NCBI GenBank assembly: GCA_033648345.1
Contig: GCA_033648345.1_4121.1
Length of the DNA: 64,000 nucleotides
Origin: a phage
Strand: one strand, 5' to 3'
The number at the start of each line of letters is the position of its first letter. Position 1 is the first letter of the stretch. The position numbers and the translations under genes were made by a program. This document shows positions 1,698 through 14,560 of this stretch, one piece after another. The notes below the pieces were generated by a model. That model was given only the letters and a program-made list of their open reading frames with translations. It made no database searches and had not been told where the DNA came from.

Positions 1698-2864
1698 TTA
1701 CGAAAAACGTGGATCATCAAGAACAAACACTGTACTACTTGGACCACCTTGTGTGGTGACAGCACTAGTACTGTAAAGAAAGTTACCATCCGTCATATAA
1801 GTTCTACGATTCGTACAAATAACTCTTACTTTATTCATATCGATATCAGGATTAGGTAATGGACATGAAGTATACACTGATACATCAGTACTTGTTCCTA
1901 TCCCCAGCGTACCTTCATTTGTGGTTGAACCGCTATTCAACCCACTAGCATATATACCACTGCTTGTAATAACAAAAGTGGCGTAGAATGGAGAACCTTC
2001 ACCTATATTTAATTTAGTTCCAGGTGGTTGTCTTGCCGCAGCAACCGCACCATATGCTTTCCCACCAGATGTGGCAAGATTACCAAGAGCACCATACTGT
2101 TGTTGTCCACCATTATACACTGTGTTAGTGCCATCACTGTTAGTGTGGATACCAATAGAATTATAGTTACTGTTGCTATATACTAACGCGGTATTCGAAG
2201 TAACTGTATTTCGTGTATATACTTTATATTGTTGGGTAAAATTACCACTAGTGGACGTACCCTGTACAGTTCCAGTGTAGTATATATATCCGTCTGTACC
2301 AATGAATGAGTGCATAACACTACCTGCAAAAATTTTTTCGGGAGTAACACCTGACGGTATTGTTGATTGTACAAATCTACCCACTACATTTGTTGTTGTA
2401 TTATTTCCCAATTGACCGGAGTCACCATAACCACTTGACCATATGGTATTGTTCTCAAGAAGAACACTAATTGATAATCTTGATAAAGCTATTTCTTTAA
2501 CATCACTTTCTAATGTATCAAAAAATGAAGTACAATTTGTCCAAGTGTTCACTACGCTAGAACTAACACCAATTTGTTTATTATCACCAGAACTATAATA
2601 ATTCCCATCATATGTTTGTATAAGTATAACAGAACTACCAACCCATACTTTATCAACTGAACCAAACGTTCTTGTCCATGTGGTAACTATATCCCCGCTA
2701 TTATTACCCAATCCAAAGCAACCACTACTATCTACACCTCGTACATATAAATCTCCTGAAGTCATCAGAACTGCACAGAATGATTGTGCACCTTTAACAT
2801 CTTTAATTGGCTCTGGTTCAGGTGCAACATTCCCATAATCAAACATTCTAACAAAAGGTAACAT
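1698..2864 (-). CDS. RCC1-repeat protein, paralog 3
   Basis: Track ORF 1698..2882 trimmed to Met after SD; SGYGDSGQLGNN and GGQQQYGALGN RCC1-like blades. Confidence 0.65.
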   Translation of the reverse strand: MLPFVRMFDYGNVAPEPEPIKDVKGAQSFCAVLMTSGDLYVRGVDSSGCFGLGNNSGDIVTTWTRTFGSVDKVWVGSSVILIQTYDGNYYSSGDNKQIGVSSSVVNTWTNCTSFFDTLESDVKEIALSRLSISVLLENNTIWSSGYGDSGQLGNNTTTNVVGRFVQSTIPSGVTPEKIFAGSVMHSFIGTDGYIYYTGTVQGTSTSGNFTQQYKVYTRNTVTSNTALVYSNSNYNSIGIHTNSDGTNTVYNGGQQQYGALGNLATSGGKAYGAVAAARQPPGTKLNIGEGSPFYATFVITSSGIYASGLNSGSTTNEGTLGIGTSTDVSVYTSCPLPNPDIDMNKVRVICTNRRTYMTDGNFLYSTSAVTTQGGPSSTVFVLDDPRFS

Positions 2865-2912
2865 ATTTCCTCCTTTATTCATTATATCATATTTACCCCA
2901 TAAACAAAACCC

Positions 2913-2941
2913 TTGACAACCTTCCAGTACTGATGTACTAT
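2913..2941 (+). promoter_or_regulatory. sigma70-type promoter driving the FamA array
   Basis: TTGACA-17-TACTAT in the divergent intergenic region. Confidence 0.5.
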
Positions 2942-2966
2942 AGAAGGAATATAAGGAGAACTACAC

Positions 2967-3194
2967 ATGACAAATACTCTTAAGTACTACCTCAATACTC
3001 TAAATGAACTAGAGTACGCGAAGTTTCTCGCGGATAGTTCGTGGCTAATTGAGCTAAAAACACATAACAGTACTGGATGTAACCTTATGCTGAACAATGC
3101 ACTTGATACCCTTGTAGTGAGTATTTTACACAGCACCATCTGCGGGGATAGCAATAAACAATTATCAAAAATCTTAGTACTGGTAGCTCTATGA
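2967..3194 (+). CDS. FamA-like small protein (divergent first member)
   Basis: 75 aa ORF with SD AAGGAG; LKYYLNTL N-terminus. Confidence 0.5.
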   Translation: MTNTLKYYLNTLNELEYAKFLADSSWLIELKTHNSTGCNLMLNNALDTLVVSILHSTICGDSNKQLSKILVLVAL

Positions 3195-3403
3195 ACACTA
3201 TGAACATTGAACAGTACTACATTGATGCACTACCAACAAAAGGTCTACGAGAAAGCCTACTGTATACACAAAATAATTATATAAACCTCAAACATTGTCC
3301 TAAACTCTTGAACTCGTACAGGAATAATAAAATAAGAAATGCTGTACAAGGGGTAGAAAGTATGCAATACTATTACATCCTAACCCTTTTAATCGAGCAC
3401 TAA
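3191..3403 (+). CDS. FamA small paralog
   Basis: ATGA overlap with upstream gene; EQYYID N-term motif. Confidence 0.6.
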   Translation: MNTMNIEQYYIDALPTKGLRESLLYTQNNYINLKHCPKLLNSYRNNKIRNAVQGVESMQYYYILTLLIEH

Positions 3404-3404
3404 T

Positions 3405-3590
3405 ATGTATAAAGAATTCTACTGTAGTAAGCTGCACAAACAATACAGAGATTCATTTCCCAATGAACCTATGGATATGAATAGTCCCTTTTATAAATTT
3501 GACTTCAGACTGGAGACACGTTATGCAATAGAACATCAATTTCCTGAAACTAAGTACTTATCTATCATGAACCTCATCTTTAAGTTCTAA
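3405..3590 (+). CDS. FamA small paralog
   Basis: MYKEFY N-term, LIFKF C-term; TAATATG junction. Confidence 0.6.
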   Translation: MYKEFYCSKLHKQYRDSFPNEPMDMNSPFYKFDFRLETRYAIEHQFPETKYLSIMNLIFKF

Positions 3591-3601
3591 AAGAGTACTA
3601 T

Positions 3602-3814
3602 ATGAAAACTATGAACATACACCAGTACTACTTAGATATTCTCCCTAAAGATGTACAGTTCATCCTTAAACAAGAATACAGTACTTTAAAAAACCTTAAA
3701 AGAACCGCACCGAATGTATTAATCCTGCACCAAGAAAATGTAGTTGATAATATTCTACAAGGTGTACCAGGGACCGAGTACTTTAACATAATAAGGCTAA
3801 TTACATTACCATGA
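3602..3814 (+). CDS. FamA small paralog
   Basis: Near-duplicate architecture of 3191..3403 (MxTMNIxQYY...LQGV). Confidence 0.6.
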   Translation: MKTMNIHQYYLDILPKDVQFILKQEYSTLKNLKRTAPNVLILHQENVVDNILQGVPGTEYFNIIRLITLP

Positions 3815-3996
3815 ATCATATATTATACTATTACCAAAATCTATCCGACAGGGACAAGTACACCCACAACTCCAATGTATGGTACTACAAACGCGGTAGT
3901 ATAAGAGACAAACAACATTACTTCTGTATTGCTATAAAAGAAGCACTAACAACTAAGTACACGTACAGAGCAGTACTGAAACTTATTGATATGTAA
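3811..3996 (+). CDS. FamA small paralog
   Basis: ATGA overlap; C-term VLKLIDM. Confidence 0.55.
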   Translation: MNHILYYYQNLSDRDKYTHNSNVWYYKRGSIRDKQHYFCIAIKEALTTKYTYRAVLKLIDM

Positions 3997-4006
3997 AGAG
4001 AATACT

Positions 4007-4192
4007 ATGAATACATTTGAGTACTATACAAATAAACTATCTATGCCAGAAAGATCTCATCTCTATGTGTGGAGAAATGCGTATAAAAGCGGCAATAAAC
4101 TTATACAAAGAAATTCCCTTACAGTGTGTACAAATTTAATTAAAGCAGAGTACCGCACATATATTGAAGTACTCAAACTGATAGCAATATAA
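4007..4192 (+). CDS. FamA small paralog
   Basis: Start moved to MNTFEYY after upstream stop; C-term VLKLIAI. Confidence 0.55.
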   Translation: MNTFEYYTNKLSMPERSHLYVWRNAYKSGNKLIQRNSLTVCTNLIKAEYRTYIEVLKLIAI

Positions 4193-4200
4193 GGTACTCT

Positions 4201-4380
4201 ATGCAAGAATTCTATATCTATAACCTCCAGCACAAAGATAGATACAACTATAATAAATTCCAAAGGTACTACACAGTCGGAAACAAAAGAGATAAAAAAC
4301 GATACTTTCTATCATGTACAGTAGAAGCACAAAACGAAAAGTACAGGTACAGAGAAGTACTTAAACTAATCTCTATGTAA
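4201..4380 (+). CDS. FamA small paralog (59 aa, absent from ORF track)
   Basis: MQEFYIYNL...VLKLISM by manual translation. Confidence 0.5.
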   Translation: MQEFYIYNLQHKDRYNYNKFQRYYTVGNKRDKKRYFLSCTVEAQNEKYRYREVLKLISM

Positions 4381-4388
4381 GGAATAAT

Positions 4389-4568
4389 ATGCAAGAATAC
4401 TATATAGAACACATAAACATTAAAGACCGTTTCATGTACGACACCTTCGTGAAGTACTACAACCTGGCAACTAACAGTACTAAAAATATTAATCTCAATA
4501 GCTGCATTCATCACGCACTAACAAAAGATAATCCCTTCAGGGAAATCCTCGCACTCGCATCTGTATAA
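4389..4568 (+). CDS. FamA small paralog (59 aa, absent from ORF track)
   Basis: MQEYYIEHI... by manual translation. Confidence 0.5.
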   Translation: MQEYYIEHINIKDRFMYDTFVKYYNLATNSTKNINLNSCIHHALTKDNPFREILALASV

Positions 4569-4578
4569 AGGAAACCAA

Positions 4579-5238
4579 ATGAAACTTAATGCACACAGCA
4601 AACAATACCTTAAGCACTTTAAGTACCTCAACAGTATTCAAGCAGAATCTTTTACACCAGCATATACGTATCACCCAAATGTACTAAAGAAACGAAATAA
4701 AAAGAAAAAATCCAGAAATGTTCTCGTATCTAAGAACCTCAAATCGTACTTGAAGAAAAATAATATAGCTCTTGCTTTTATTAATATCTATCATACTGAT
4801 TTAAAAGTATTGAGTACTAATACCAGCACAAAAGCACTAAAGAATGCATCTATCTATATACACATGGATAATATCCCGTGCACTATAATTCTATCTTTCG
4901 GGAATGTATACTTCTTCGGGAATTGTAATAGCACCCATGATATCAGTACTGCACAATTCCAAATCGGAGATATGTACTGCATGGGTTCAGAAAAAATACA
5001 CGATAACATGCACTTCTTCCAAAAGCAACGTACTAACGAAACTGATACAGTACTGCAATTCCTCAAAGAACTACAAAACAAAGAATTAACACCAGAAGAA
5101 GAATTCATGTACAGTACTGTAATCGATAATCCAGAACTCTATAAAAACGCGTACAAACTAACAAAACATGTACAGGAACTTATCAGTACTGATAAGAAAT
5201 TTCATAACCTCATTACGTATATTACAAACTATGTATAA
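4579..5238 (+). CDS. 219-aa protein with FamC-like motif inside the FamA array
   Basis: Contains LTPEEEFMYSTVID, resembling the FamC EE-x-F-FQ-x-S-T-V motif. Confidence 0.55.
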   Translation: MKLNAHSKQYLKHFKYLNSIQAESFTPAYTYHPNVLKKRNKKKKSRNVLVSKNLKSYLKKNNIALAFINIYHTDLKVLSTNTSTKALKNASIYIHMDNIPCTIILSFGNVYFFGNCNSTHDISTAQFQIGDMYCMGSEKIHDNMHFFQKQRTNETDTVLQFLKELQNKELTPEEEFMYSTVIDNPELYKNAYKLTKHVQELISTDKKFHNLITYITNYV

Positions 5239-5413
5239 AGAATACTACAAAGATAAAATCCCAATGCATCTACAACACCATATACCAAACGTTGCATTGG
5301 GTATCAAAGATCACGCAAAGATAATGTTCCAACAATGTACTAAGTACACGCTCATATACGATGATAATCCATATATGCTGTACTACGTAGTAATGCTAAC
5401 ATTCAGGTACTAA
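5231..5413 (+). CDS. FamA small paralog
   Basis: Start moved to MYKEYY; C-term MLTFRY. Confidence 0.6.
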   Translation: MYKEYYKDKIPMHLQHHIPNVALGIKDHAKIMFQQCTKYTLIYDDNPYMLYYVVMLTFRY

Positions 5414-5415
5414 TA

Positions 5416-5613
5416 ATGAATATAAAAGAATACTACGTAAGTAAACTTGCAATTAATTACCAAATGCTTATTCCCCGCAATCCTGTAGATTTCAAAGATA
5501 AGAGCAAAACAATATACTACCGCCAGCATATAATGCATACAATAGAAGAAGATGATTATGATGATGATATGTATAACCTGTACAAAGTACTAACACTTAT
5601 ATTCAGGTACTAA
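5416..5613 (+). CDS. FamA small paralog
   Basis: MNIKEYY...LTLIFRY. Confidence 0.65.
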   Translation: MNIKEYYVSKLAINYQMLIPRNPVDFKDKSKTIYYRQHIMHTIEEDDYDDDMYNLYKVLTLIFRY

Positions 5614-5614
5614 T

Positions 5615-5800
5615 ATGTATAAAGAATACTACATAGAGAAACTCCCAATGTATCTCCAACACCTTGTACCAACAGAACCATTGGGTATAGAAAAAGACTA
5701 CGAAAAAGACTACTTCGTTAAGTGCACTAAATCCTCAATAGATATTGAGGACTATAATCGAGTACTGTATCACATCCTTTTACTAATATATAAGTACTAA
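5615..5800 (+). CDS. FamA small paralog
   Basis: MYKEYY...LLLIYKY. Confidence 0.65.
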   Translation: MYKEYYIEKLPMYLQHLVPTEPLGIEKDYEKDYFVKCTKSSIDIEDYNRVLYHILLLIYKY

Positions 5801-5801
5801 T

Positions 5802-5990
5802 ATGAATAACCACAAAGAATACTACACACAATTTCTCCCCAGCATTTTTGAACACTACGCCAGATATAAAGTCCCCCTGGATAACGATTTGGCAGTACTG
5901 GGATTCAATAACTGCATAGAACGAAGTATAGAAAATAGTAGTACTTATGACCAATTATATAACATCATACTACTCATATACAGGTACTAA
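5802..5990 (+). CDS. FamA small paralog
   Basis: MNNHKEYY...FNNCIERS...ILLIYRY. Confidence 0.65.
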   Translation: MNNHKEYYTQFLPSIFEHYARYKVPLDNDLAVLGFNNCIERSIENSSTYDQLYNIILLIYRY

Positions 5991-5991
5991 T

Positions 5992-6180
5992 ATGCATAAA
6001 GAATACTACACAAAATATTTCCCAATGTACCTCAGTACTAATCTATTAGATAAACCTCGCGGTATCAATGCTCAAAACGATAAAGTGTACTTTACTATGT
6101 GCACTAAAGCATGTATACTAGATTTTGATAGCTATCATCGAGTACTGTATCATACCCTGTACCTAGCTTTCGTGTACTAA
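5992..6180 (+). CDS. FamA small paralog
   Basis: Start moved to MHKEYY; C-term YLAFVY. Confidence 0.6.
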   Translation: MHKEYYTKYFPMYLSTNLLDKPRGINAQNDKVYFTMCTKACILDFDSYHRVLYHTLYLAFVY

Positions 6181-6190
6181 AGAGGCCAAT

Positions 6191-6397
6191 ATGAACGAAC
6201 AGAAAGAATTCTACACCAAATACCTCAGTGCATCAGAACAAATGTTTCTAAGGAGTGTATCACCTTTACGTTTAGATACACCACACGCCAGAGATTGTTT
6301 TAATAATTGTATACGTATTACTCTAGAAGCTTTAGAAAACAATAACAAAAATATTCAGTACTCAGGCGTAATGGGACTAATATTCTTCTATGAATAA
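6191..6397 (+). CDS. FamA small paralog
   Basis: MNEQKEFY...FNNCIRIT...LIFFYE. Confidence 0.65.
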   Translation: MNEQKEFYTKYLSASEQMFLRSVSPLRLDTPHARDCFNNCIRITLEALENNNKNIQYSGVMGLIFFYE

Positions 6398-6578
6398 CAA
6401 AGAATTCTACATAAACCATCTGGAACTAAACTCCCAAATGCTTATACCACTAAACCCAATAGATATCAAGGATAAGAAAAATACCAAACAATTCCACTAC
6501 CACACACTATGTGCTATCAACCCTGATTATAATACATATAAACTGTACTACATTCTCGCCCTAATATATAGGTACTGA
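6390..6578 (+). CDS. FamA small paralog
   Basis: MNNKEFY...LALIYRY. Confidence 0.65.
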   Translation: MNNKEFYINHLELNSQMLIPLNPIDIKDKKNTKQFHYHTLCAINPDYNTYKLYYILALIYRY

Positions 6579-6579
6579 T

Positions 6580-6765
6580 ATGCATAGAGAATACTATATA
6601 CAATTTGTTAAAGGGAACTACAAACACGCCGTCCCCGTAAACCCCTTAAATTCTAATGACCCAAGTACTATATTCTTGTTCCATGACGCAATACGTACAG
6701 TACTCAATACTAAAGATGAACAGGTGCAGTACGTATTCTTACTATTACTTATATACAGACACTAA
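6580..6765 (+). CDS. FamA small paralog
   Basis: MHREYY...LLLIYRH. Confidence 0.65.
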   Translation: MHREYYIQFVKGNYKHAVPVNPLNSNDPSTIFLFHDAIRTVLNTKDEQVQYVFLLLLIYRH

Positions 6766-6782
6766 AGCACTAAGGTACTAAC

Positions 6783-6986
6783 ATGTATAAAGACTTCTAC
6801 ATAAATCATCTTAGTCCCGCAAAACAATCATTCTATAAAGCAAAACCAATGAAAATGAAATTACAAAATAATTTCACAAAAATATGCTATAATAACTGTA
6901 TACGTAGTACTATACAAGCACTGCAAGAAAATGACAACAATAAACTATACTCCAACATAATGGCACTCCTATATATCTATGAATAA
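6783..6986 (+). CDS. FamA small paralog
   Basis: MYKDFY...YNNCIRST...LLYIYE. Confidence 0.65.
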   Translation: MYKDFYINHLSPAKQSFYKAKPMKMKLQNNFTKICYNNCIRSTIQALQENDNNKLYSNIMALLYIYE

Positions 6987-7188
6987 TGAACATAAAGAAT
7001 TCTACTCCAAACACCTCAGCCCCTCAGAACAAATGTTTCTAAGGACTACAGCACCTTTAAATACTGATACATATTTCGGCAGATTATGCTACAATAATTG
7101 TATTCAAATGACTTTAAACGCAAACGACAATAATAACAGTACTAACATGTACTCAGGCATCATAGGTATACTATTCCTATATGAATAA
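6979..7188 (+). CDS. FamA small paralog
   Basis: MNNEHKEFY...YNNCIQMT...LFLYE. Confidence 0.65.
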   Translation: MNNEHKEFYSKHLSPSEQMFLRTTAPLNTDTYFGRLCYNNCIQMTLNANDNNNSTNMYSGIIGILFLYE

Positions 7189-7369
7189 TTACAAAGACTT
7201 CTATTTGAATACACTACCTACTGTACTTTCTCTAAGTGCTCAATGTAAAATCCCGCTGGATAATCCTTACGCCAGATATAACTATTCCATAACTGTTAAT
7301 CGATGTATAGAGAATCATTGCAGTACTAACCAGTACTATAACATAATCCTACTTATATTCAGGTACTAA
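7181..7369 (+). CDS. FamA small paralog
   Basis: MNNYKDFY...ILLIFRY. Confidence 0.65.
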   Translation: MNNYKDFYLNTLPTVLSLSAQCKIPLDNPYARYNYSITVNRCIENHCSTNQYYNIILLIFRY

Positions 7370-7370
7370 T

Positions 7371-7550
7371 ATGAACGAACACAAAGACTTCTATATAAGA
7401 AAACTAACATTCGTCCCCGTAAAAATATATAAAGAATGCGACCCAAGATTATACCTATGGCACTTCAATGAGTGCATAAAAGATTCTATATACCCTAAGA
7501 ACTATAAAGAACAATTGTGCTCAGTACTAACACTAGTACTATCATATTAA
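7371..7550 (+). CDS. FamA small paralog (59 aa, absent from ORF track)
   Basis: MNEHKDFYIRKL... by manual translation. Confidence 0.5.
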   Translation: MNEHKDFYIRKLTFVPVKIYKECDPRLYLWHFNECIKDSIYPKNYKEQLCSVLTLVLSY

Positions 7551-7563
7551 TAGAGATAATACT

Positions 7564-7755
7564 ATGCATAAAGACTATAAAGAGTACTATATAAGTAAAC
7601 TCAAAGAGAATGAACAAGCATGGGTTAACAATTTAATCCCCCTGGCAATGACTCAATACGAATTTAATATGTGTACAAAGATTGTTTTAACTAGTAATGA
7701 TATCTCTAATACGTACTACTTCCTATTAAGAGTACTATATGGTACTTTGAAATAA
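7564..7755 (+). CDS. FamA small paralog
   Basis: MHKDYKEYYISKL... Confidence 0.6.
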   Translation: MHKDYKEYYISKLKENEQAWVNNLIPLAMTQYEFNMCTKIVLTSNDISNTYYFLLRVLYGTLK

Positions 7756-7766
7756 TAAGGTATACT

Positions 7767-7973
7767 ATGCAGAACATAAAAAACTATAAAGAGTACTATA
7801 TAAGTAAACTACCACCGACTGACCAAGCATGGATTAGATCTATAATAGTACTGGCATTTAATAGATATGCATTTAACAGATGTACCGAGATTGCTATAGA
7901 CCCTTATAATATTAAAGAGAATGTACAGCATAATCAGTACTACTATATGTTAATGCTTATATATAGGAAGTAA
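7767..7973 (+). CDS. FamA small paralog
   Basis: MQNIKNYKEYYISKL...LMLIYRK. Confidence 0.6.
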   Translation: MQNIKNYKEYYISKLPPTDQAWIRSIIVLAFNRYAFNRCTEIAIDPYNIKENVQHNQYYYMLMLIYRK

Positions 7974-8320
7974 TTCAACATATAGACAGGGGAAGCTCCG
8001 CAGGGAAAGCATTGGACAGGCTTTAACATATGTTATATATGTTAAAATTCAGCCTGCTCGACGTCTGAATTGTTAAAATTCAGCCTGGACAAATGCGATC
8101 ACTAGGATTCTCCCCAGGCTAAACCCCGTAATCATATGTAGTCATAAGTAATCATATATAAACATTTATGTAATCATTTATAATCATTGTAGTGATTAGT
8201 ATTGAGTACTAGAGTGTAATAGAGTGTAATAGAGTACAGGAATGTGCACGTTTAATCAAGAACGTAGCAGTACTGCCCCAAAAGTATTCAGTACTGAAGG
8301 TGTCGATATCCCACTAAGTA

Positions 8321-8346
8321 GGCAGAGGAAGTCTGCCGTACTTTTT
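8321..8346 (+). terminator. Terminator-like hairpin
   Basis: GGCAGA-GGAAG-TCTGCC followed by GTACTTTTT. Confidence 0.4.
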
Positions 8347-8681: not shown

Positions 8682-8709
8682 TTGACATTATGATTCAGTA
8701 CTGTATAAT
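8682..8709 (+). promoter_or_regulatory. Orphan sigma70-type promoter in non-coding region
   Basis: TTGACA-16-TATAAT followed by GTTTTACAT; no long ORF downstream. Confidence 0.45.
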
Positions 8710-9096
8710 GTTTTACATAGAGAGATGAGTTGCCGCAAACAATTCATTCACTCTACTTCCTGTCGTGAGACAGTACAGAAAGATAGTTCCTCCTATGGGT
8801 GGTACATCTTTTAGAACCTCTTTTTTCGTAATATGAACAGTACTGATATTAACAGAATGGTGTCAATACTGATTTTAATCTAAAGCATTATGCCACCAGC
8901 TTGTGCTGGTGGATTCCCTCTAACAGTATTCAGTACTACATGATAGTCTTCATCCTCCTAGGGTAACATAGTGAGGGCTATGATGGCAGTACTGAATACT
9001 CCTTTCACAAGATAGATCTATGGTATAGTACTGACGTATTTTGGGCGTAGTTACCCTGGATGGATTTTGGACGTAGATATGTCTAGCCCTCCAGAA

Positions 9097-9240
9097 GTCT
9101 GGAAGTAAATATGGCTATCCATCTAGACGGCTAAACGGCTAGATTTCTGGATGGCTGGGTGGCTGGGTGGCTGGGTGGCTAGACGTTTGGACGGCTAAAC
9201 GGCTAGATGGTTACACGTCTGGAAGTATAGACGGCTAAAT
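9097..9240. repeat. Iteron cluster with near-symmetric architecture
   Basis: (GGCTGGGT)x3.5 tandem at 9153-9180 flanked by two copies of TAGACGGCTAAACGGCTAGAT and outer GTCTGGAAGTA repeats. Confidence 0.65.
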
Positions 9241-9998
9241 CAAAATTTTATTTTGTTTTTTCCAATAGTTCCCCTACCGCGTGGGGATAGTTTCCCCGCA
9301 GTATCTGGAGTTAGATTTTTCTGAATCTGGAATCATTATCTTATAAACTGGGGGCAATGTCAACAGCCTGGACGGATATTTTTAAAAATTTTTTCAGTAC
9401 TGAATTTTGGGCGTAACTATGCACCCGGTGGGCTTGAGTCTTTCTCGACTTGATGGAACTATTATACAGTACTGGAAAAATAAAGCAATACCCTGGAAGC
9501 AAAAAAGTTTTAATTAATTTGCTTGCTATCCTGGGCCGGACTATGGTACTATATTTCAGTACTGAGAAAGTGCGTTTACCTGCTAGGGTGCGGGAGTGTA
9601 TCCTTTTTTTATATCTTGAATTTTGGGCGTAATTCCGCACCCTCTGGGGTTTCCGCTTTCTCGCGTCTATGTAGTAATTATACGCTTTTTCAGGATCAAG
9701 TCAATACCTAAAAACAAAATAATTGAAAATAATTTAACGCGTTTAAACGGCCAGTAAAGCCCTGGAATGATTGGAATGGTGCAAATGTATAGCTTAGGTG
9801 TATTAATGCGTTAGAATGCGTCTGAGGCCGTTTTATGGGGTATAGGGATGATTTGGTGGATTGATTCAGTACTGAATAATAGTACTACTATATAGAAAGA
9901 TAGTTCCCCTGGATGGTTGCAGTACTGAATGATAGTACTGAATAATAGTTCCCCTATATAGAAAGAAAACTATTTTAAAAAGTATTTGTAGAAAGTAC

Positions 9999-10026
9999 TT
10001 GCAAACTAAGTTTAACGGCGTATAAT
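9999..10026 (+). promoter_or_regulatory. Class-I early promoter
   Basis: AAAGTACTTGCAA-16-TATAAT-GTTTTACATC consensus. Confidence 0.6.
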
Positions 10027-10081
10027 GTTTTACATCGAGAGCGGGAACACTTCCCGCTACATATTACGAGAGATTAAAACG

Positions 10082-10444
10082 ATGGCGACTCAAATCACTA
10101 AAATTATTGCTAACCTGGTTAACTTCCGCGACGAGATGAAAGGTCTTCCGGCTGAAACGGTAAAAATTCACATCGCAGCTTATCGGGAACTTATTGCAAT
10201 GTTGCCGCTTAAGCGTGAACAATACGCCGCGACCGTGATGCTTGATGCGATGATCCATAAGATGATCGCCAGTGATTTGACGATGGCGTATCAGTATATG
10301 GGTGAATTGTTCGCGGTGTATAGTAAACCAGTACCAGGAATGGAAAGTACAGAAGTATTACACGGTTTAAATTTAAAACAAGATGCATGGGATAATATGC
10401 CTCGTTTCCTGGTATGGGCTGACAGTGGCAAGATTTACGAATAA
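10082..10444 (+). CDS. Hypothetical early protein (120 aa)
   Basis: Start moved from track ORF 10025 to Met after the 5'UTR hairpin GCGGGAACACTTCCCGC. Confidence 0.65.
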   Translation: MATQITKIIANLVNFRDEMKGLPAETVKIHIAAYRELIAMLPLKREQYAATVMLDAMIHKMIASDLTMAYQYMGELFAVYSKPVPGMESTEVLHGLNLKQDAWDNMPRFLVWADSGKIYE

Positions 10445-10458
10445 GTTTTAGAAAGTAC

Positions 10459-10486
10459 TTGCAAACTAAGTTTAAAAGCGTATAAT
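10459..10486 (+). promoter_or_regulatory. Class-I early promoter
   Basis: TTGCAA-16-TATAAT. Confidence 0.6.
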
Positions 10487-10536
10487 GTTTTACATCAGGT
10501 GGGGAATAGTTCCCCACTATATAAGAGGATTAAAAA

Positions 10537-10776
10537 ATGGCTAAATCAAAAATGTTCTTAGGTCACAAAAACAAAACTCATTGGAATGTAAGCCTTTGGA
10601 TTAATAACGATGAGTCATTGTACCGGTTGGCCCTGGACTTTATTGCCGCCAATACTAATCGCAATGATGCGGCCCGTCATATGATGTTATTTTTAGAACA
10701 GACTGGACAAGATAAAACACCGGACGGATTCAAATATAGCACTACTGCGATCCGTGCGGCGATGGTTGGAATGTAA
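10537..10776 (+). CDS. Hypothetical early protein; paralog of 12576..12815
   Basis: Shared GHKNKTxWNVSLWINN...TPDGFKYSTTAIRAAMVGM; SD AAGAGGA. Confidence 0.7.
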   Translation: MAKSKMFLGHKNKTHWNVSLWINNDESLYRLALDFIAANTNRNDAARHMMLFLEQTGQDKTPDGFKYSTTAIRAAMVGM

Positions 10777-10861
10777 TAGAATTTATTTAAAGTACTATCG
10801 CAAAAAATGATAGTACTTTATAATAGTGTTTTATTCATACACCAACGATAAGGGCAACAGC

Positions 10862-11128
10862 ATGAATATTAAGTATTTTGCGACGCGTGAACAAGCTCGG
10901 ATCGCCGCACGCCAGGACGGGGCAACGTTTAAAGATATGGGCGTACAATCGGAACGTGGTAAACGTTGGGCCATTATAAAGCGTAGTACCGCCAGATCAT
11001 TACAGTACTGGTTAGCGGCGTTAAAAAGTCCCGATAGTGTATCGCGTCGAGTGGTAGAAATAAAGCTCGACCGAAAGGGCAACCGCGTGACCGTGTACCG
11101 TACTAAAAAGATTGCAGTACTTGAATAA
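10862..11128 (+). CDS. Hypothetical early protein; paralog of 23885..24280
   Basis: Shared KYFATREQARIAARQDGATFKDMG and DRKGNRVTVY motifs; start moved to MNIKYF. Confidence 0.65.
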   Translation: MNIKYFATREQARIAARQDGATFKDMGVQSERGKRWAIIKRSTARSLQYWLAALKSPDSVSRRVVEIKLDRKGNRVTVYRTKKIAVLE

Positions 11129-11135
11129 AAAGTAC

Positions 11136-11163
11136 TTGCAAACTATGTTTAATGGCGTATAAT
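11136..11163 (+). promoter_or_regulatory. Class-I early promoter
   Basis: TTGCAA-16-TATAAT. Confidence 0.6.
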
Positions 11164-11215
11164 GTTTTACATCGAGAGCGGGAACACTTCCCGCCTATAA
11201 CCTGGAGTAATAAAA

Positions 11216-11446
11216 ATGACTAATATGTATATGACTGAAGTTAAAACCGTAAAAGATACTACCACGAATAAAACTACTTACTTACAGCGGATCTGCGGTG
11301 TATGGCAACGTATCAGCAAATCAAAGTACTTTAAATTAACATCATATGCAAACCGTTCGGATTCATTCAGTACTGAAATAAAAGGTAATAAAGTACACCA
11401 ATACGGCACTTATTATTATTATAGCCTGGACGCGATTGCAGTATAA
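11216..11446 (+). CDS. Hypothetical early protein (76 aa)
   Basis: ORF after promoter, hairpin and SD GGAGT. Confidence 0.6.
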   Translation: MTNMYMTEVKTVKDTTTNKTTYLQRICGVWQRISKSKYFKLTSYANRSDSFSTEIKGNKVHQYGTYYYYSLDAIAV

Positions 11447-11476
11447 GCAGTTTACAAATCTTTACAATTGCCGGTA

Positions 11477-11505
11477 TTGACTTATTTTGTCAGTACTGGC
11501 ATAAT
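11477..11505 (+). promoter_or_regulatory. Promoter of convergent pair (candidate small-RNA promoter)
   Basis: TTGACT-17-CATAAT; no ORF downstream, followed by the conserved CCCA-GGGTGC leader motif. Confidence 0.5.
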
Positions 11506-11620
11506 GTATTCATTGGCAGATAAGCCGTAGCCCATAGGGTGCGGGAGTGTATCTATAGAAAAAGTAGTTTATTACAGTTACAATTGTGCACCCGGTGGGT
11601 TAGCTGTTGTCATGGGGTAT

Positions 11621-11649
11621 ATTATGCCAGTACTTGATAATGCTGTCAA
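11621..11649 (-). promoter_or_regulatory. Convergent minus-strand promoter
   Basis: Reverse complement reads TTGACA-17-CATAAT and faces the promoter at 11477. Confidence 0.5.
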
Positions 11650-11695
11650 TACTTTTTTTTACTATTCAGTACTGAAAACTATTTTTAAAAAGTAC

Positions 11696-11723
11696 TTGCA
11701 AACTATGTTTAAAGGCGTATAAT
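11696..11723 (+). promoter_or_regulatory. Class-I early promoter (P1 of tandem pair)
   Basis: TTGCAA-16-TATAAT followed by structured leader ACATCAGGACGGGGAACG... Confidence 0.55.
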
Positions 11724-11813
11724 GTTTTACATCAGGACGGGGAACGAAATAAGTAACTCCCCGTTAAGTAGCCCAGGAGTAAGGCACACGAAAAACTCCC
11801 CTGATAAAATAGT

Positions 11814-11841
11814 TTGACAAATGTTTTTAAAAGCGTATAAT
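11814..11841 (+). promoter_or_regulatory. Promoter P2 of tandem pair
   Basis: TTGACA-16-TATAAT. Confidence 0.55.
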
Positions 11842-11873
11842 ACTTACATCAACTACTGAATGAGGGTTACAAA

Positions 11874-12485
11874 ATGAAAACTATCACTACTACTACTTTC
11901 GTTATGGATTTTTCTGAATTGAACGCAGAACAAAAAACGTCAGCTATCGAACTGGTTCGGGAACGTGAAAAAAACTCAAACGACAATTATTTTTCTGAAA
12001 GTGAAATTGAATACTATAAAGAAACAGTACTACCGGAATATGGCATTAATGACGCTGAAATACAATTCAGTGGTTTTTGGTCCCAGGGTGACGGTGCATC
12101 AATCAGTACTGACCACGTTGACGGTGTGAAGTTTTTACGCAAGGTAAGAGCATTAACTAAGTATCGCTCAATCCGTCACTTGCTGAATGAAGATGATTTG
12201 GCGATGAGTGTAAAGCGTTCTCATTCTTTGTACTTGCATGAGAATACTGTAAGCGGGTACATTGAATCGGCTTACACTGATTTAACCGCAAAACAAGAAA
12301 CGTTAGTTAATGAGCTTGAGGAACTACTCACTGAAACTATTCGTGAATTATCCCGCAAGTTGTACCGTGATTTAGAGAATGCATATGAGGATCAATTCAC
12401 TACTGAAAACATCGTATCACTGATTGAGGGTAACGAATATCAATTCAATGTTATTGATGGCGTAGTAGAATCAATCGAATATTAA
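11874..12485 (+). CDS. Hypothetical acidic early protein (203 aa)
   Basis: ORF with upstream tandem promoters; SD GAGGG. Confidence 0.7.
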   Translation: MKTITTTTFVMDFSELNAEQKTSAIELVREREKNSNDNYFSESEIEYYKETVLPEYGINDAEIQFSGFWSQGDGASISTDHVDGVKFLRKVRALTKYRSIRHLLNEDDLAMSVKRSHSLYLHENTVSGYIESAYTDLTAKQETLVNELEELLTETIRELSRKLYRDLENAYEDQFTTENIVSLIEGNEYQFNVIDGVVESIEY

Positions 12486-12497
12486 TTCAAAAAGTAC

Positions 12498-12525
12498 TTG
12501 CAAACTAAGTTTAAAAGCGTATAAT
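12498..12525 (+). promoter_or_regulatory. Class-I early promoter
   Basis: TTGCAA-16-TATAAT. Confidence 0.6.
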
Positions 12526-12575
12526 ACTTTATATCGAGGCGGGGAGTGGTTCCCCGCTCAAACGAGGATTTAAAA

Positions 12576-12815
12576 ATGGCTAGTACTAAAACTTATAACG
12601 GACACAAAAACAAAACTCAATGGAATGTAAGCCTTTGGATTAATAACGGTGAGTCATTGTATCGGCTTGCACAAAGTTGTATCGCACAAAGTAGAACTAA
12701 AGATATTGCAGCGGAATGCATGTACCGCAGATTAAAAGCCAACGGTACTACTACAACGCCGGACGGCTTTAAGTATAGCACTACTGCGATCCGTGCTGCA
12801 ATGGTTGGAATGTAA
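12576..12815 (+). CDS. Hypothetical early protein; paralog of 10537..10776
   Basis: Start moved to MASTKTYNGHK after hairpin GGCGGGGAGTGGTTCCCCGC. Confidence 0.7.
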   Translation: MASTKTYNGHKNKTQWNVSLWINNGESLYRLAQSCIAQSRTKDIAAECMYRRLKANGTTTTPDGFKYSTTAIRAAMVGM

Positions 12816-12873
12816 TATTCAGTACTGTAACAATGGCGGGGAATGGTTCCCGCCTTTATTGAGGGTTTATCTA

Positions 12874-13134
12874 ATGAGTAAAGTAATTAACTATACAGTA
12901 CTAAGCAAGTCATTGTCTATCAGTGAATGCACCGATGGTTTTTGGCTTTATGATGAAACGCGTGGAATGAATTTAGCTATGCGTGTAAAAACTGCTGAGG
13001 CGGCGTATCTTGAGGCACTGGAATACTACCAGGAACGTTTAACGGAAGTAGAAGAAGATTATAAAAGCCTCAAAGCGAAAGTAGATCATTTCGTCGGTCA
13101 ATTCATCGAGGAAGACGACGATAAACAATACTGA
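12874..13134 (+). CDS. Hypothetical early protein (86 aa)
   Basis: Start moved to MSKVINY after hairpin GGCGGGGAATGGTTCCCGCC and SD GAGGG. Confidence 0.6.
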   Translation: MSKVINYTVLSKSLSISECTDGFWLYDETRGMNLAMRVKTAEAAYLEALEYYQERLTEVEEDYKSLKAKVDHFVGQFIEEDDDKQY

Positions 13135-13222
13135 AAAAAAGTACTTGCAATTAGTTTTCAGTACTGTATAATAGTTTACATCAAGTGGAGAAATGGTTCT
13201 CCCTGGTAATGAGGAAAATAAA

Positions 13223-13444
13223 ATGGCTAATATCACTACTCTTTCCCAACTGGAAGCACTGGTTAAATCTATGCGGGAACATGCCGACAAAATCGGCGTA
13301 CAAGATCCAGCCGTTTGCTTCTGCGACGAATTGAATGATGATACCCTTGTAATAGCAGAAGTCCAGGACGTTTCTAACTATTCCTCGCGTTACACTGGCG
13401 GCGTAGCAAATAAAGGCGACTTCTGTTTATACCTTACAAAATAA
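13223..13444 (+). CDS. Hypothetical early protein (73 aa)
   Basis: Start moved to MANITT after hairpin and SD. Confidence 0.6.
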   Translation: MANITTLSQLEALVKSMREHADKIGVQDPAVCFCDELNDDTLVIAEVQDVSNYSSRYTGGVANKGDFCLYLTK

Positions 13445-13449
13445 CAACG

Positions 13450-13480
13450 CGGGGAGATAATAACTCCCCGTTACTTTTTC
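13450..13480 (+). terminator. Rho-independent terminator
   Basis: CGGGGAGATAATAACTCCCCG followed by TTACTTTTT. Confidence 0.6.
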
Positions 13481-13550
13481 AGTACTGAATCATTTAATAG
13501 ACGGATCTATGCACCCGGTGGGTTAGTGACTGTTTCGTCTTGATGTAGTA

Positions 13551-13579
13551 ATTATGCCAGTACTGGATGCAGTTGTCAA
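13551..13579 (-). promoter_or_regulatory. Minus-strand promoter with conserved leader (candidate small RNA)
   Basis: Reverse complement TTGACA-17-CATAAT followed by ACATCAAGACG...CCCACCGGGTGCAT; no ORF. Confidence 0.45.
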
Positions 13580-13612
13580 CAACTATTTTTCAAATACTTT
13601 TTATTAAAATAC

Positions 13613-13640
13613 TTGCAATTAGTTTTTAAACGCGTATAAT
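13613..13640 (+). promoter_or_regulatory. Class-I early promoter
   Basis: TTGCAA-16-TATAAT. Confidence 0.55.
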
Positions 13641-13687
13641 GTTTTGCATAGGGGGAGCGGTTCCCCTGGTAACTAAGGAATAATAAA

Positions 13688-13924
13688 ATGCTTGAACAAA
13701 TCAAATCAACGTCTGCGAATGTAACGGGAACGGTAGCACACTTTACTAGTGATGAATCGCGGGGCGTTCCCTATTGTGCTGTACATGTAAACACTGATGG
13801 CAACTACTGGTTTACGGTTTACGGATCATATTCATTTGGACGGCCTGGGCATCAAAAAATTCTGGATAAAGTACAACCAACGGGTAAAAATATCACTGCC
13901 GAAATGTTTTATAAAAAATCATAA
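13688..13924 (+). CDS. Hypothetical early protein (78 aa)
   Basis: Hairpin GGGGGAGCGGTTCCCC then SD AAGGAA. Confidence 0.65.
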   Translation: MLEQIKSTSANVTGTVAHFTSDESRGVPYCAVHVNTDGNYWFTVYGSYSFGRPGHQKILDKVQPTGKNITAEMFYKKS

Positions 13925-13929
13925 AGTAC

Positions 13930-13957
13930 TTGATAATAGTTTTTAGTACTGTATAAT
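13930..13957 (+). promoter_or_regulatory. Early promoter
   Basis: TTGATA-16-TATAAT. Confidence 0.5.
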
Positions 13958-14008
13958 ATTTTACATCGCAAGGGGGAGCGGTTCCCCCTAGTAACTAAGG
14001 ATAATCAA

Positions 14009-14308: not shown

Positions 14309-14329
14309 TAGATACTACGGGGTAACATC

Positions 14330-14560
14330 ATGACTAAGCGAATTGTTTTACTTAACGAAAGCAGTACTACACAACTACTTAACGCCGTGCATTATGATAT
14401 TGAAACGAGCGTTAATCTTATCAGTACTGTAGTACTGTTGGACACTGGAAAGGTCGCCAATGATAAAGCGATTGCAGGTATATTAACGGATCTTGAGCCT
14501 GGTAGCAGTGCACCAATAACGTTAAATGGTAAAGTGTTTAATATTTTACTCACTGATTAA
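14330..14560 (+). CDS. Hypothetical protein (76 aa)
   Basis: ORF closely following upstream gene. Confidence 0.55.
   Translation: MTKRIVLLNESSTTQLLNAVHYDIETSVNLISTVVLLDTGKVANDKAIAGILTDLEPGSSAPITLNGKVFNILLTD

What the first reader, a model, noticed from the sequence alone, without database searches (positions are those of the whole stretch)
2967..7973. Tandem array of ~22 tiny paralogs (~60 aa) with KEYY N-terminus and LLIYRY-type C-terminus (FamA)
A third, unrelated multigene family. Members start M-x-[KH]-[ED]-[YF]-Y, many carry a central C-x-[NT]-x-C-I or CTK motif, and end in an aromatic-aliphatic tail (ILLIYRY, LLLIYKY, LIFFYE). Three members below the 60-aa track cutoff were recovered by manual translation (4201, 4389, 7371). 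The array is driven by a TTGACA-17-TACTAT promoter at 2913.
Basis: seen in the sequence. Interest (0 to 1): 0.8.

Follow-up and report, generated by a model that had tools for sequence, protein, structure and literature searches.

The report
Tandem small-protein gene family, jumbo phage
A jumbo E. coli phage carries a single operon of 21 related genes for tiny (~60 amino acid) helical proteins next to its terminal repeat; the genes are real and selected as proteins and are swapped like cassettes between related phages, but what they do, probably manipulating the host early in infection, is still only inferred.

Summary
Window 2967-7973 is a gap-free, same-strand run of 22 small ORFs (59-75 aa).

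- **Family size:** 15 ORFs form an unmistakable family (PHROG 11711, unknown function). Six more join through iterative HMM and profile-profile comparison. The first ORF (2967) cannot be shown to belong.
- **Coding status:** these are genes, not frame-independent DNA repeats. Pooled dN/dS is 0.18-0.42, and 49% of single-codon differences are synonymous in the called frame against 8-37% in the other five.
- **Structure:** AlphaFold gives a confident four-helix mini-domain (pLDDT 92) with no structural relatives. The LLIYRY tail is a core helix, not a membrane anchor.
- **Distribution:** the window comes from an Asteriusvirus jumbo coliphage, and the family is confined to that genus. About 50 orthogroups occur across 10 genomes, 13-21 per genome, and synteny breakpoints sit at gene boundaries.
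- **Expression signals:** the array ends 344 bp before the 21-kb terminal repeat and shares that repeat's promoter type (TTGACA-N9-AGTACTG-TATAAT).

Best reading: a lineage-specific expansion of early, translationally coupled host-interference proteins. The function is inferred, not shown. I class it as a new member of a known kind, of moderate interest.

The parts
2913..2941 (+). Sigma-70-type promoter, TTGACA-17-TACTAT, with AGTACTG in the spacer. It has the same architecture as 17 promoters in the adjacent terminal repeat.
   Evidence: Conserved in 8 related genomes, including the divergent JNE01, where the -10 reads TACAAT. Function is inferred, not shown.
2953..2958 (+). Canonical Shine-Dalgarno sequence AAGGAG, 8 nt before the first ATG of the operon.
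   Evidence: Read directly from the sequence.
2967..3194 (+). First ORF of the operon (75 aa). It carries KYY and a hydrophobic tail, but family membership is not demonstrable.
   Evidence: No significant paralog hits. hhalign below 8% probability. Marginal 5-6 bit HMM hit. Orthologs present in 7 related genomes.
3191..3403 (+). Subfamily C member (70 aa).
3405..3590 (+). Core family member (61 aa).
   Evidence: phrog_11711 at E 2e-15. Core HMM.
3602..3814 (+). Subfamily C member (70 aa).
3811..3996 (+). Subfamily B member (61 aa).
4007..4192 (+). Subfamily B member (61 aa). The ATG at 4007 is preferred to the TTG at 3986.
4201..4380 (+). Subfamily B member (59 aa).
4389..4568 (+). Subfamily B member (59 aa).
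4579..5238 (+). Unrelated 219-aa ORF embedded in the operon. It is found only in this genus and its function is unknown.
   Evidence: phrog_29152 at E 8.5e-112. Only 63-98% identical orthologs found. Not matched by the family HMM. AlphaFold model unusable, pLDDT 37.
5231..5413 (+). Core member (60 aa). Its start overlaps the ORF219 stop by 8 nt.
5416..5613 (+). Core member (65 aa).
5615..5800 (+). Core member (61 aa). This is the protein that was modelled.
   Evidence: phrog_11711 at E 8e-28. AlphaFold pLDDT 92.4, pTM 0.75.
5802..5990 (+). Core member (62 aa).
5992..6180 (+). Core member (62 aa). The ATG at 5992 is preferred to the one at 5947.
6191..6397 (+). Core member (68 aa), of the ...FFYE-ending subtype with CxNNC.
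6390..6578 (+). Core member (62 aa).
6580..6765 (+). Core member (61 aa).
6783..6986 (+). Core member (67 aa).
6979..7188 (+). Core member (69 aa).
7181..7369 (+). Core member (62 aa).
7371..7550 (+). Core member (59 aa).
7564..7755 (+). Core member (63 aa).
7767..7973 (+). Core member (68 aa), the last gene of the array.
7974..8316 (.). Non-coding spacer between the array and the terminal repeat, containing short odd repeats.
8317..8346 (+). Start of the direct terminal repeat, which is the physical left end of the packaged genome. A conserved hairpin, GGCAGAGGAAGTCTGCC, is followed by a T-run and could also end array transcripts.
   Evidence: Base 1 of vB_Ec-M-J and of fEgEco12 aligns to window 8317. 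The hairpin is identical in all loci checked. It was called terminator-like.

Best explanation
The array is a lineage-specific expansion of one small-protein gene, carried as a single operon at the right end of the unique region of an Asteriusvirus jumbo coliphage. It lies immediately upstream of the ~21-kb direct terminal repeat.

**Shown**
- 21 of the 22 small ORFs are homologous and fall into three subfamilies.
- They evolve under purifying selection in the called frame.
- The core members fold, with high predicted confidence, into a soluble ~60-residue four-helix mini-domain. Its conserved residues (K3, E4, Y/F5, invariant Y6, L10, P22, F34, C37, I/L42 and the Y-x-x-[IV]-L-x-L-I-[YF]-x-Y tail) are mostly hydrophobic or aromatic. 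The intervening positions are highly variable.
- The genes abut or overlap, with gaps of -11 to +17 nt. Junctions such as AGG-TAC-TAA-T-ATG make the last codons of one gene double as a weak ribosome-binding site for the next.
- Related phages carry different subsets of about 50 orthogroups, and synteny breakpoints sit at gene boundaries.

**Inferred**
- The operon is transcribed early by host sigma-70 RNA polymerase from the promoter at 2913. That promoter belongs to the class that fills the terminal repeat.
- The operon is translated by coupling along one polycistronic mRNA.
- The proteins are a library of binding modules: a conserved scaffold with variable surfaces. Each interferes with a host factor or defence variant.
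- Recombination at the conserved gene ends adds, removes and swaps cassettes as hosts change.
For: - **Source genome:** Asteriusvirus.
- **Homology:**
- **Coding:**
  - Pooled dN/dS is 0.18-0.42 against 7 genomes, with a third-position excess.
  - The synonymous fraction is 0.49 in the called frame against 0.08-0.37 in the other five.
- **Fold:**
  - pLDDT 92.4, pTM 0.75, helices at 3-8, 12-15, 28-43 and 47-60.
  - An independent BFVD model of a 31%-identical member superposes at TM 0.82.
  - Conservation follows helix periodicity.
- **No TM segment:**
- **Junctions and AGG bias:**
- **Promoter:**
  - The promoter class TTGACA-N9-AGTACTG-(T/GC)ATAAT has 17 + strand copies at 8.6-28.4 kb, plus the site at 2913.
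  - The 2913 site is conserved in 8 genomes.
- **Position:** the terminus maps to 8317. DTR size is from PMC13070987 and PMC11895373.
- **Timing:**
  - In the Rak2-like phage CBB, RpoD-like promoters in front of short ORFs next to the terminal repeat were read as the early, host-takeover region (PMC5259590).
  - The late-promoter-like heptamer ATAAATA is almost absent from the window.
- **Not virion proteins:** the phAPEC6 virion mass spectrometry table lists the neighbouring RCC1-like proteins (gp549, gp551) and even a 4.7-kDa protein, but no member of this family.
- **Cassette turnover:**
  - 13-21 members per genome and 50 orthogroups.
  - 19 of 24 breakpoints lie within 35 nt of a gene start, against 33% expected (p = 4e-6).
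- **Restricted range:**
  - 36 phage records, all Asteriusvirus-type.
  - Only 29 cluster representatives among 1.84 billion proteins.
Against: - No transcript, ribosome-profiling or peptide data exist for any member. I found no Asteriusvirus transcriptome.
- No sequence or structural similarity to any protein of known function. The host-interference role therefore rests on position, promoter type, size and evolutionary pattern alone.
- dN/dS of 0.2-0.4 indicates purifying rather than diversifying selection between orthologs. The arms-race signature is in gene content, not in substitution rates.
- The promoter's -10 hexamer (TACTAT) is weaker than in the terminal-repeat copies.
- The whole intergenic region is conserved, so conservation of the hexamers is not independent proof.
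- The array lies outside the terminal repeat, unlike the SPO1 and T5 paradigms.
Confidence: 0.45

Rival explanations
1. The proteins are small tail-anchored or membrane-active peptides. The aromatic-aliphatic C-terminus would insert into the inner membrane, for example for superinfection exclusion, holin-like timing or membrane depolarisation.
For: - The C-terminal 8-12 residues are strongly hydrophobic (LLLIYKY, ILLIYRY) in 16 of 22 members.
- Many small phage proteins are membrane proteins (general knowledge).
Against: - The maximum 19-residue Kyte-Doolittle mean is 0.95, and about 1.6 is expected for a TM helix.
- The longest run free of charged or strongly polar residues is 12.
- In the confident model the tail is the end of helix 4, packed against helix 3, and its conserved residues follow a buried-face periodicity.
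- There is no signal-peptide-like N-terminus. The N-terminus is the polar KEYY motif.
Confidence: 0.08
2. The proteins are small DNA-binding, nucleoid-organising or transcription-factor proteins. This would resemble the ~35-copy zinc-ribbon expansion in Bacillus phage G. They might recognise the AGTACT palindrome that saturates this genome.
For: - AGTACT occurs 286 times in the window against about 21 expected. It lies in promoter spacers and throughout the array, in all three frames.
- Sites inside array genes are retained between orthologs more often than random hexamers (86% vs 65%, p = 0.002). Something must read this motif.
- Lineage-specific expansions of small putative DNA binders are known in jumbo phages (PMC7824862).
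- Several members are basic, with pI 9.3-9.7.
Against: - No helix-turn-helix, zinc-ribbon or other DNA-binding signature in Pfam or NCBIfam.
- pI ranges from 5.5 to 9.7 and six of the 21 members carry a net negative charge.
- Most members have one Cys, so there is no metal site.
- A single invariant motif would not need 21 diverged readers.
Confidence: 0.08
3. The array is largely genomic ballast. On this view the copies are duplicated, mildly constrained and individually dispensable. They would persist because tandem repeats expand easily, or because the DNA itself (AGTACT sites, packaging length, translational-coupling spacers) is what matters.
For: - Copy number varies from 13 to 21 with whole-gene gains and losses.
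- Truncated or frameshifted copies occur in CMSTMSU and SD-1_S14.
- dN/dS of 0.2-0.4 is relaxed compared with core genes.
- DNA-level constraints overlap the coding sequence.
Against: - Every one of the 36 genomes keeps a large array.
- Paralogs have diverged to 20-48% identity yet keep intact ORFs, length, core residues and a confidently predicted fold.
- Synonymous changes are strongly favoured in the called frame only.
- Array genes prefer TAC and TTC codons (0.62-0.66, against 0.41-0.47 in the other + strand genes of the window), which is compatible with efficient expression.
Confidence: 0.15
4. The proteins are packaged virion or ejected internal proteins that enter the cell with the DNA.
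For: - The divergently transcribed neighbours are RCC1-like proteins, found in virions of phAPEC6 and annotated as structural in vB_Ec-M-J.
Against: - No family member appears in the part of the phAPEC6 virion table recovered from the paper text, although a 4.66-kDa protein was detected.
- The operon has an early-type sigma-70 promoter, and the window contains no TATAAATA or ATAAATA late-type motif near it.
Confidence: 0.04

Closest known systems
PHROG phrog_11711 (unknown function), annotated as 'hypothetical protein' in 121Q (gp249-265), PBECO4, slurp01, G17, phAPEC6 (gp542c) and others
   Same: The 15 core members are this family: the six core members tested match at E 5e-10 to 8e-28. Orthologs are 83-97% identical in the public Asteriusvirus genomes.
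   Different: - The PHROG covers only the core. Subfamilies B and C and ORF 2967 match no PHROG.
- Many copies are not annotated at all. BF17 and vB_Ec-M-J annotate only 11-12 features across the array, although each has 21 family members.
- No paper I could search describes the array.
Host-takeover / pre-early gene blocks at phage genome ends (Bacillus phage SPO1 genes 37-60; coliphage T5 pre-early region). Cited from general knowledge.
   Same: - Clusters of small proteins of unknown fold.
- Strong host-sigma-type promoters.
- Position at the genome terminus.
- The Rak2-like phage CBB has an analogous region of short ORFs with RpoD-like promoters running into its terminal repeat (PMC5259590).
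   Different: - Those blocks lie inside the terminal redundancy and consist mostly of unrelated genes.
- This block lies 344 bp outside the repeat.
- It is one paralogous family under a single promoter.
- No shut-off function has been tested.
Terminal multigene families of large eukaryotic DNA viruses (ASFV MGF110/360, poxvirus 'genomic accordions'). Cited from general knowledge.
   Same: - Tandem paralogs near a genome end.
- Copy number and membership vary between isolates.
- Members diverge while keeping a scaffold.
- In those viruses the families act in host range and immune evasion.
   Different: - No homology.
- Bacterial virus with polycistronic, translationally coupled expression.
- Members are only about 60 aa.
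- No link to host range has been demonstrated.
Lineage-specific expansion of a small zinc-ribbon protein (~35 copies) in Bacillus jumbo phage G (PMC7824862)
   Same: A very large expansion of a tiny protein within a single jumbo-phage lineage, with unknown role.
   Different: - The fold here is all-helical with usually one Cys, so there is no metal-binding site.
- The copies are strictly tandem in one operon.

Membership tests
PHROG phrog_11711 | Significant full-length match to the 62-position profile | tested here: met
   Six core members match at E 5e-10 to 8e-28 over profile positions 1-62. The other nine core members match a window-built HMM of the same family at E 6e-16 to 9e-27.
PHROG phrog_11711 | The same match for ORFs 2967, 3191, 3602, 3811, 4007, 4201 and 4389 | tested here: not met
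   No PHROG hit at E <= 0.01-0.1. All except 2967 are related only at superfamily level, by iterative HMM and hhalign.
Small membrane / tail-anchored proteins | A hydrophobic segment long enough to span the bilayer (about 18-20 residues, Kyte-Doolittle 19-window mean >= 1.6) | tested here: not met
   Maximum window mean 0.95. Longest uncharged run 12 residues.
Zinc-ribbon / zinc-finger mini-proteins | Two CxxC/CxxH pairs (3-4 metal ligands) | tested here: not met
   Members have 0-3 Cys, usually 1. Only one column (C37) is conserved, in 77 of 122 sequences.
Terminal-repeat host-takeover module (SPO1/T5 type) | Located within the terminal redundancy | tested here: not met
   The terminal repeat starts at window 8317 and the array ends at 7973.
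Terminal-repeat host-takeover module (SPO1/T5 type) | Host-sigma consensus early promoters in front of small genes | tested here: met
   TTGACA-17-TACTAT at 2913 is of the same class as 17 terminal-repeat promoters and is conserved. This is consensus evidence only.
Terminal-repeat host-takeover module (SPO1/T5 type) | Early expression and host shut-off activity | not testable with these tools
   No transcriptome or functional study found.
Viral terminal multigene family ('accordion' type) | Tandem paralogs near a genome end, with copy-number and content variation between isolates | tested here: met
   13-21 members per genome and 50 orthogroups over 10 genomes. Breakpoints fall at gene boundaries. 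The array is adjacent to the terminal repeat.
Viral terminal multigene family ('accordion' type) | A role in host range or immune evasion | not testable with these tools
   Requires deletion and host-panel experiments.
Any curated protein family (Pfam-A, NCBIfam, PADLOC) or solved structure | A significant sequence or fold match | tested here: not met
   - Pfam: none at E <= 1.
- NCBIfam: none.
- PADLOC: none.
- PDB sequence profile: best E 0.73.
- Foldseek against PDB: none below E 3.8.
- BFVD: only family members.

The most novel reading that the evidence does not exclude
The array would be a phage counterpart of the terminal multigene families of large eukaryotic DNA viruses. On this reading it is a cassette library of early effectors built on a previously unseen four-helix scaffold. 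Each paralog would neutralise a different host factor or defence variant. The conserved gene ends would serve three purposes at once: protein core, ribosome-binding and coupling signal, and recombination substrate that lets phages gain, lose and swap cassettes in frame.
Probability: 0.3. Interest if true: 0.7.

Novelty: new member of a known kind. Interest (0 to 1): 0.5.

Why it matters
**If the proteins are early host-interference modules**
- The array would be a ready-made panel of about 50 natural variants of one tiny scaffold. These could be screened for inhibitors of E. coli and Salmonella functions or defence systems.
- It would also show that phages use copy-number and cassette turnover of a multigene family at a genome end, a strategy documented mainly in poxviruses and ASFV.

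**Practical points that hold regardless**
- About half of these genes are missing from several public Asteriusvirus annotations.
- These phages are being developed for therapy, so a 5-kb block of unknown early proteins is worth characterising.

**If the family proves dispensable**
- It remains a clean example of overlapping protein-level and DNA-level constraints (ribosome-binding site and AGTACT motif) in very short genes.

Tried and rejected
- **Frame-independent DNA repeat or spurious ORFs.** Rejected by dN/dS and by the six-frame synonymous-fraction control. Also rejected because the KEYY motif is mostly not encoded by the AGTACT palindrome.
- **Membrane anchor.** Rejected by hydropathy and by the model.
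- **Remote homology.** Nothing was found beyond the family itself and one repeat-protein false positive, P0039. Searches run:
  - Exhaustive HMMER profile search of 1.84 billion representatives.
  - Word-indexed search.
  - PDB sequence profile.
  - Pfam, PHROGs, NCBIfam and PADLOC.
- **ORF219 as a functional clue.**
  - Only orthologs from this genus were found.
  - The AlphaFold model had pLDDT 37 and was unusable.
  - A suspected FamA-like C-terminus was not supported.
- **ORF 2967 as a 22nd member.** Not supported by hhalign. Only a marginal HMM hit.
- **RNA genes in the region.** No Rfam match at E <= 0.1.
- **Internal promoters.**
  - Sigma-70-like matches inside the array number 21, fewer than the 33 seen in shuffles.
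  - None is of the AGTACTG class.
- **Literature.**
  - Asteriusvirus, Rak2-like and jumbo-phage papers mention RCC1-like paralogs and terminal repeats.
  - None mentions this family, the AGTACT motif or any transcriptome.

Full report
**Where the window comes from.** The array and its surroundings match Escherichia and Salmonella jumbo phages of the genus Asteriusvirus (the 121Q, PBECO4, slurp01, BF17 and fEgEco12 group). Identity is 85-97%, and BF17 is the closest at 97%. These phages have genomes of 350-385 kb with direct terminal repeats of about 21 kb (PMC13070987; PMC11895373).

**Checking the observation.** Between 2967 and 7973 the + strand carries 22 small ORFs of 59-75 aa, placed end to end. 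Gaps between neighbours run from -11 to +17 nt.
- Three ORFs listed with long N-terminal extensions most likely start at internal ATGs (4007, 5231, 5992). These starts abut the previous stop and coincide with the start of the family profile.
It is unrelated to the family.

**Is it one family?**
- All-against-all phmmer links 15 ORFs (3405, and the 14 from 5231 to 7767) at E 1e-5 to 1e-27.
- The six core members scanned against PHROGs all match phrog_11711, a family of unknown function.
- An HMM of the 15, run over all six reading frames of the 64-kb window, finds exactly those 15 in the called frame and nothing else at E < 0.01.
- The other small ORFs form two groups: 3191 and 3602 (subfamily C), and 3811, 4007, 4201 and 4389 (subfamily B).
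- I pooled arrays from eight related genomes. An iterative HMM search then converged on 195 sequences. None was a reversed-sequence decoy and none lay outside an array. It included both small groups.
- Independent profile-profile comparison agrees:
  - Subfamily B vs core: 94.8% probability (E 5e-8) over 55 columns.
  - Subfamily C vs core: 91.9% probability (E 7e-7) over 60 columns.
- ORF 2967 stays outside. hhalign gives under 8%, and a one-sequence HMM test gives only 5-6 bits.
- The count is therefore 21 related genes in three subfamilies, plus two non-members.

- I compared window genes with same-length orthologs in seven genomes. Pooled dN/dS is 0.18-0.42, with an excess of third-position changes.
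- Among single-difference codons in 53 ortholog pairs, 49% are synonymous in the called frame. The other five frames give 8-37%.
- The N-terminal K-E-[YF]-Y motif is encoded mostly as AAA GAA T[AT]C TA[CT], not by a fixed DNA word.
- So the ORFs are selected as proteins.

There is a real DNA-level overlay at the 3' ends.
- Eight junctions contain GGTACTAA: seven read AGG TAC TAA and one GTG TAC TAA. In five of them AGG TAC TAA is followed directly by T ATG, a 1-nt gap.
- The penultimate Arg is AGG in 6 of 7 cases, against 8 of 48 Arg codons elsewhere in the array (Fisher p = 6e-4).
- Where a gene ends differently, a GTACT-containing, Shine-Dalgarno-like element sits in the short spacer instead.
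- Only the first gene has a canonical AAGGAG.
- I read this as translational coupling along one mRNA. That is an inference.

**What the proteins look like.**
- AlphaFold2, using only the 15 window paralogs as its alignment, gives a confident model of ORF 5615. Mean pLDDT is 92.4 and pTM is 0.75. There are two short N-terminal helices (residues 3-8 and 12-15), a loop, and a hairpin of two long helices (28-43 and 47-60).
- An independent public model of a 31%-identical member superposes at TM 0.82.
- In a 123-sequence alignment the conserved columns are K3, E4, Y/F5, an invariant Y6, L10, Q15, P22, F34, C37, T/I38, I/L42 and the C-terminal Y-x-x-[IVL]-L-x-L-I-[YF]-x-Y. They follow helix periodicity.
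- The positions between them, the loop and the inter-helix turn are close to maximally variable.
- The proteins are rich in Tyr (11%) and poor in Gly (1.4%). This, together with C-ending Tyr and Phe codons, explains the locally reversed GC skew.
- pI ranges from 5.5 to 9.7.
- No member has a hydrophobic stretch long enough for a membrane span. The maximum 19-residue Kyte-Doolittle mean is 0.95, and the longest uncharged run is 12 residues. The LLIYRY tail is therefore the buried end of helix 4, not a membrane anchor.

**No known relatives.**

| Search | Result |
|---|---|
| Pfam | no hit for any family member at E <= 1 |
| NCBIfam | none |
| PADLOC | none |
| PDB sequence profile | best E 0.73 |
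| Foldseek vs PDB | none below E 3.8 |
| BFVD | only family members |
| Exhaustive HMMER, 1.84 billion representatives | 29 hits; 26 of 59-69 aa, a 41-aa fragment and a 531-aa repeat-protein false positive |

- The most divergent hits belong to the JNE01/Turkey5 lineage of the same genus.
- tblastn with a member of each subfamily finds the same 36 phage records, all from Escherichia or Salmonella.

**Genomic setting and expression signals.**
- Upstream, on the opposite strand, lie RCC1-like paralogs. These are virion proteins in phAPEC6.
- Base 1 of two genomes with determined termini aligns to window 8317. The array is therefore the last gene block of the unique region, and it ends 344 bp before the right terminal repeat.
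- The hairpin first flagged as terminator-like (8321-8337) is the very beginning of the packaged genome. It is identical in every locus examined.
- The site at 2913 is one of a distinctive promoter class, TTGACA-N9-AGTACTG-(T/GC)ATAAT. This class has 17 further + strand copies between 8.6 and 28.4 kb, inside the terminal repeat.
- The 2913 site is conserved in eight genomes, including the divergent JNE01.
- There is no promoter of this class inside the array. Generic sigma-70-like matches there are fewer than in shuffled sequence.
- In the related phage CBB, RpoD-like promoters in front of short ORFs beside the terminal repeat were interpreted as the early, host-takeover region. A motif ATAAATA was proposed there for late genes (PMC5259590).
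- In this window ATAAATA occurs once and TATAAATA never. About 7-10 copies of TATAAATA per strand are expected from base composition.
- All of this fits early transcription by host RNA polymerase. No transcript data exist.

**Evolutionary behaviour.**
- Clustering family members from ten genomes at 65% identity or more gives 50 orthogroups.
- Each genome carries 13-21 of them, in a mostly conserved order. Whole-gene insertions, deletions and replacements are common. JNE01 shares no orthogroup with the rest.
- Boundaries of high-identity blocks between the window and five other genomes lie within 35 nt of a gene start in 19 of 24 distinct cases, against 33% expected (p = 4e-6).
- Adjacent blocks often overlap by about 30-55 nt of conserved C-terminal coding sequence. 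That is what recombination between neighbouring paralogs would leave behind.
- Individual orthologs are under purifying selection. The variability lies in which cassettes are present.

**Interpretation.**
- *Well supported:* this is a genus-restricted, tandemly expanded family of real genes. They encode small, soluble, helical proteins in one tightly packed operon beside the terminal repeat.
- *Inferred:* early expression from the 2913 promoter, coupled translation, and function.
- *Most likely function:* the combination of features points to a library of early host-interference proteins. Those features are a stable scaffold, variable surfaces, cassette turnover, an early-type promoter and absence from the recovered part of the phAPEC6 virion proteome table. 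The proteins may work in takeover or as anti-defence factors. I give this about 45%.
- *Rivals:*
  - membrane peptides, 8%
  - DNA-binding proteins, perhaps reading AGTACT, 8%
  - largely dispensable duplicates, 15%
  - packaged internal proteins, 4%
  - The remainder is 'something else'.

**Comparison with known systems.**
- The core is PHROG 11711 and is annotated as 'hypothetical protein' in public genomes. Several genomes annotate only about half the copies.
- In behaviour it resembles the SPO1 and T5 terminal early modules and the terminal multigene families of ASFV and poxviruses. Another parallel is the small-protein expansion in Bacillus phage G (PMC7824862).
- It fails the location criterion of the first comparison, because it lies outside the repeat. 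It shares no homology with any of them.
- I class it as a new member of a known kind: an uncharacterised lineage-specific expansion of small early phage proteins.

**Verdict.** I rate interest at 0.5. The finding is real, clean, undescribed in the literature I could search, and has a confident orphan fold. Its function is unknown, and its genre, small early phage ORFs, is familiar.

Noticed in passing
whole window; absent from ~29.6-35.6 kb and ~37.3-45.1 kb: The palindrome AGTACT is the most over-represented hexamer class. It occurs 286 times against about 21 expected, and CAGTACTG occurs 64 times against 0.6 expected. Spacing is roughly random, with a median of 129 bp. It falls in all three codon frames inside array genes. 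Sites are retained between orthologs more often than random hexamers (86% vs 65%, p = 0.002). It vanishes in two multi-kb zones, the first starting at the right edge of the terminal repeat. I found no mention of it in the literature.
   Followed up: partly
window 8682-28440 (+ strand), plus 11649 and 13579 (- strand): A distinctive strong promoter class, TTGACA-N9-AGTACTG-(T/GC)ATAAT, has 17 + strand copies inside the presumed terminal repeat. Several lie in duplicated segments with identical 40-mers (16250/16544, 23112/23383; near-identical at 19080/19349). This implies further tandem gene duplications there.
   Followed up: partly
window 8317-8346: The physical genome end of vB_Ec-M-J and fEgEco12 maps to window 8317. 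The assembly behind this window therefore has the ~21-kb terminal repeat collapsed or circularised. The first bases form a perfectly conserved hairpin (GGCAGAGGAAGTCTGCC), possibly a terminase or end-recognition element.
   Followed up: partly
whole window, both strands: TATAAATA occurs 0 times and ATAAATA once in 64 kb of 34% GC DNA, where about 7-10 copies of TATAAATA per strand are expected from composition. ATAAAT occurs 34 times. This suggests avoidance of a T4-like or CBB-like late-promoter motif in this early region.
   Followed up: partly
whole window: Several palindromic hexamers are completely absent although 3-6 copies are expected: AGGCCT, CAGCTG, CCATGG and CGATCG. This is consistent with avoidance of restriction sites.
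   Followed up: no
window 1698-2882 (- strand) and upstream: A divergently transcribed RCC1-like beta-propeller paralog belongs to another multigene family of 11 or more copies in this genus. Two members were detected in phAPEC6 virions.
   Followed up: no
window 4579-5238: A 219-aa ORF found only in this genus (phrog_29152) is conserved inside the array in nearly all genomes but truncated in the Salmonella phages. AlphaFold could not model it (pLDDT 37).
   Followed up: partly
window 7974-8316: The non-coding stretch between the array and the genome terminus holds short direct repeats (agagtgtaat x2, and gtaatcat-like words) and several AGTACT sites. Its role is unknown.
   Followed up: no
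L002 (BF17), L009 (vB_Ec-M-J), L008 (CMSTMSU): Public annotations miss roughly half of the array genes. BF17 and vB_Ec-M-J annotate 11-12 features across the array although each has 21 family members. CMSTMSU and SD-1_S14 contain truncated or frameshifted copies.
   Followed up: partly
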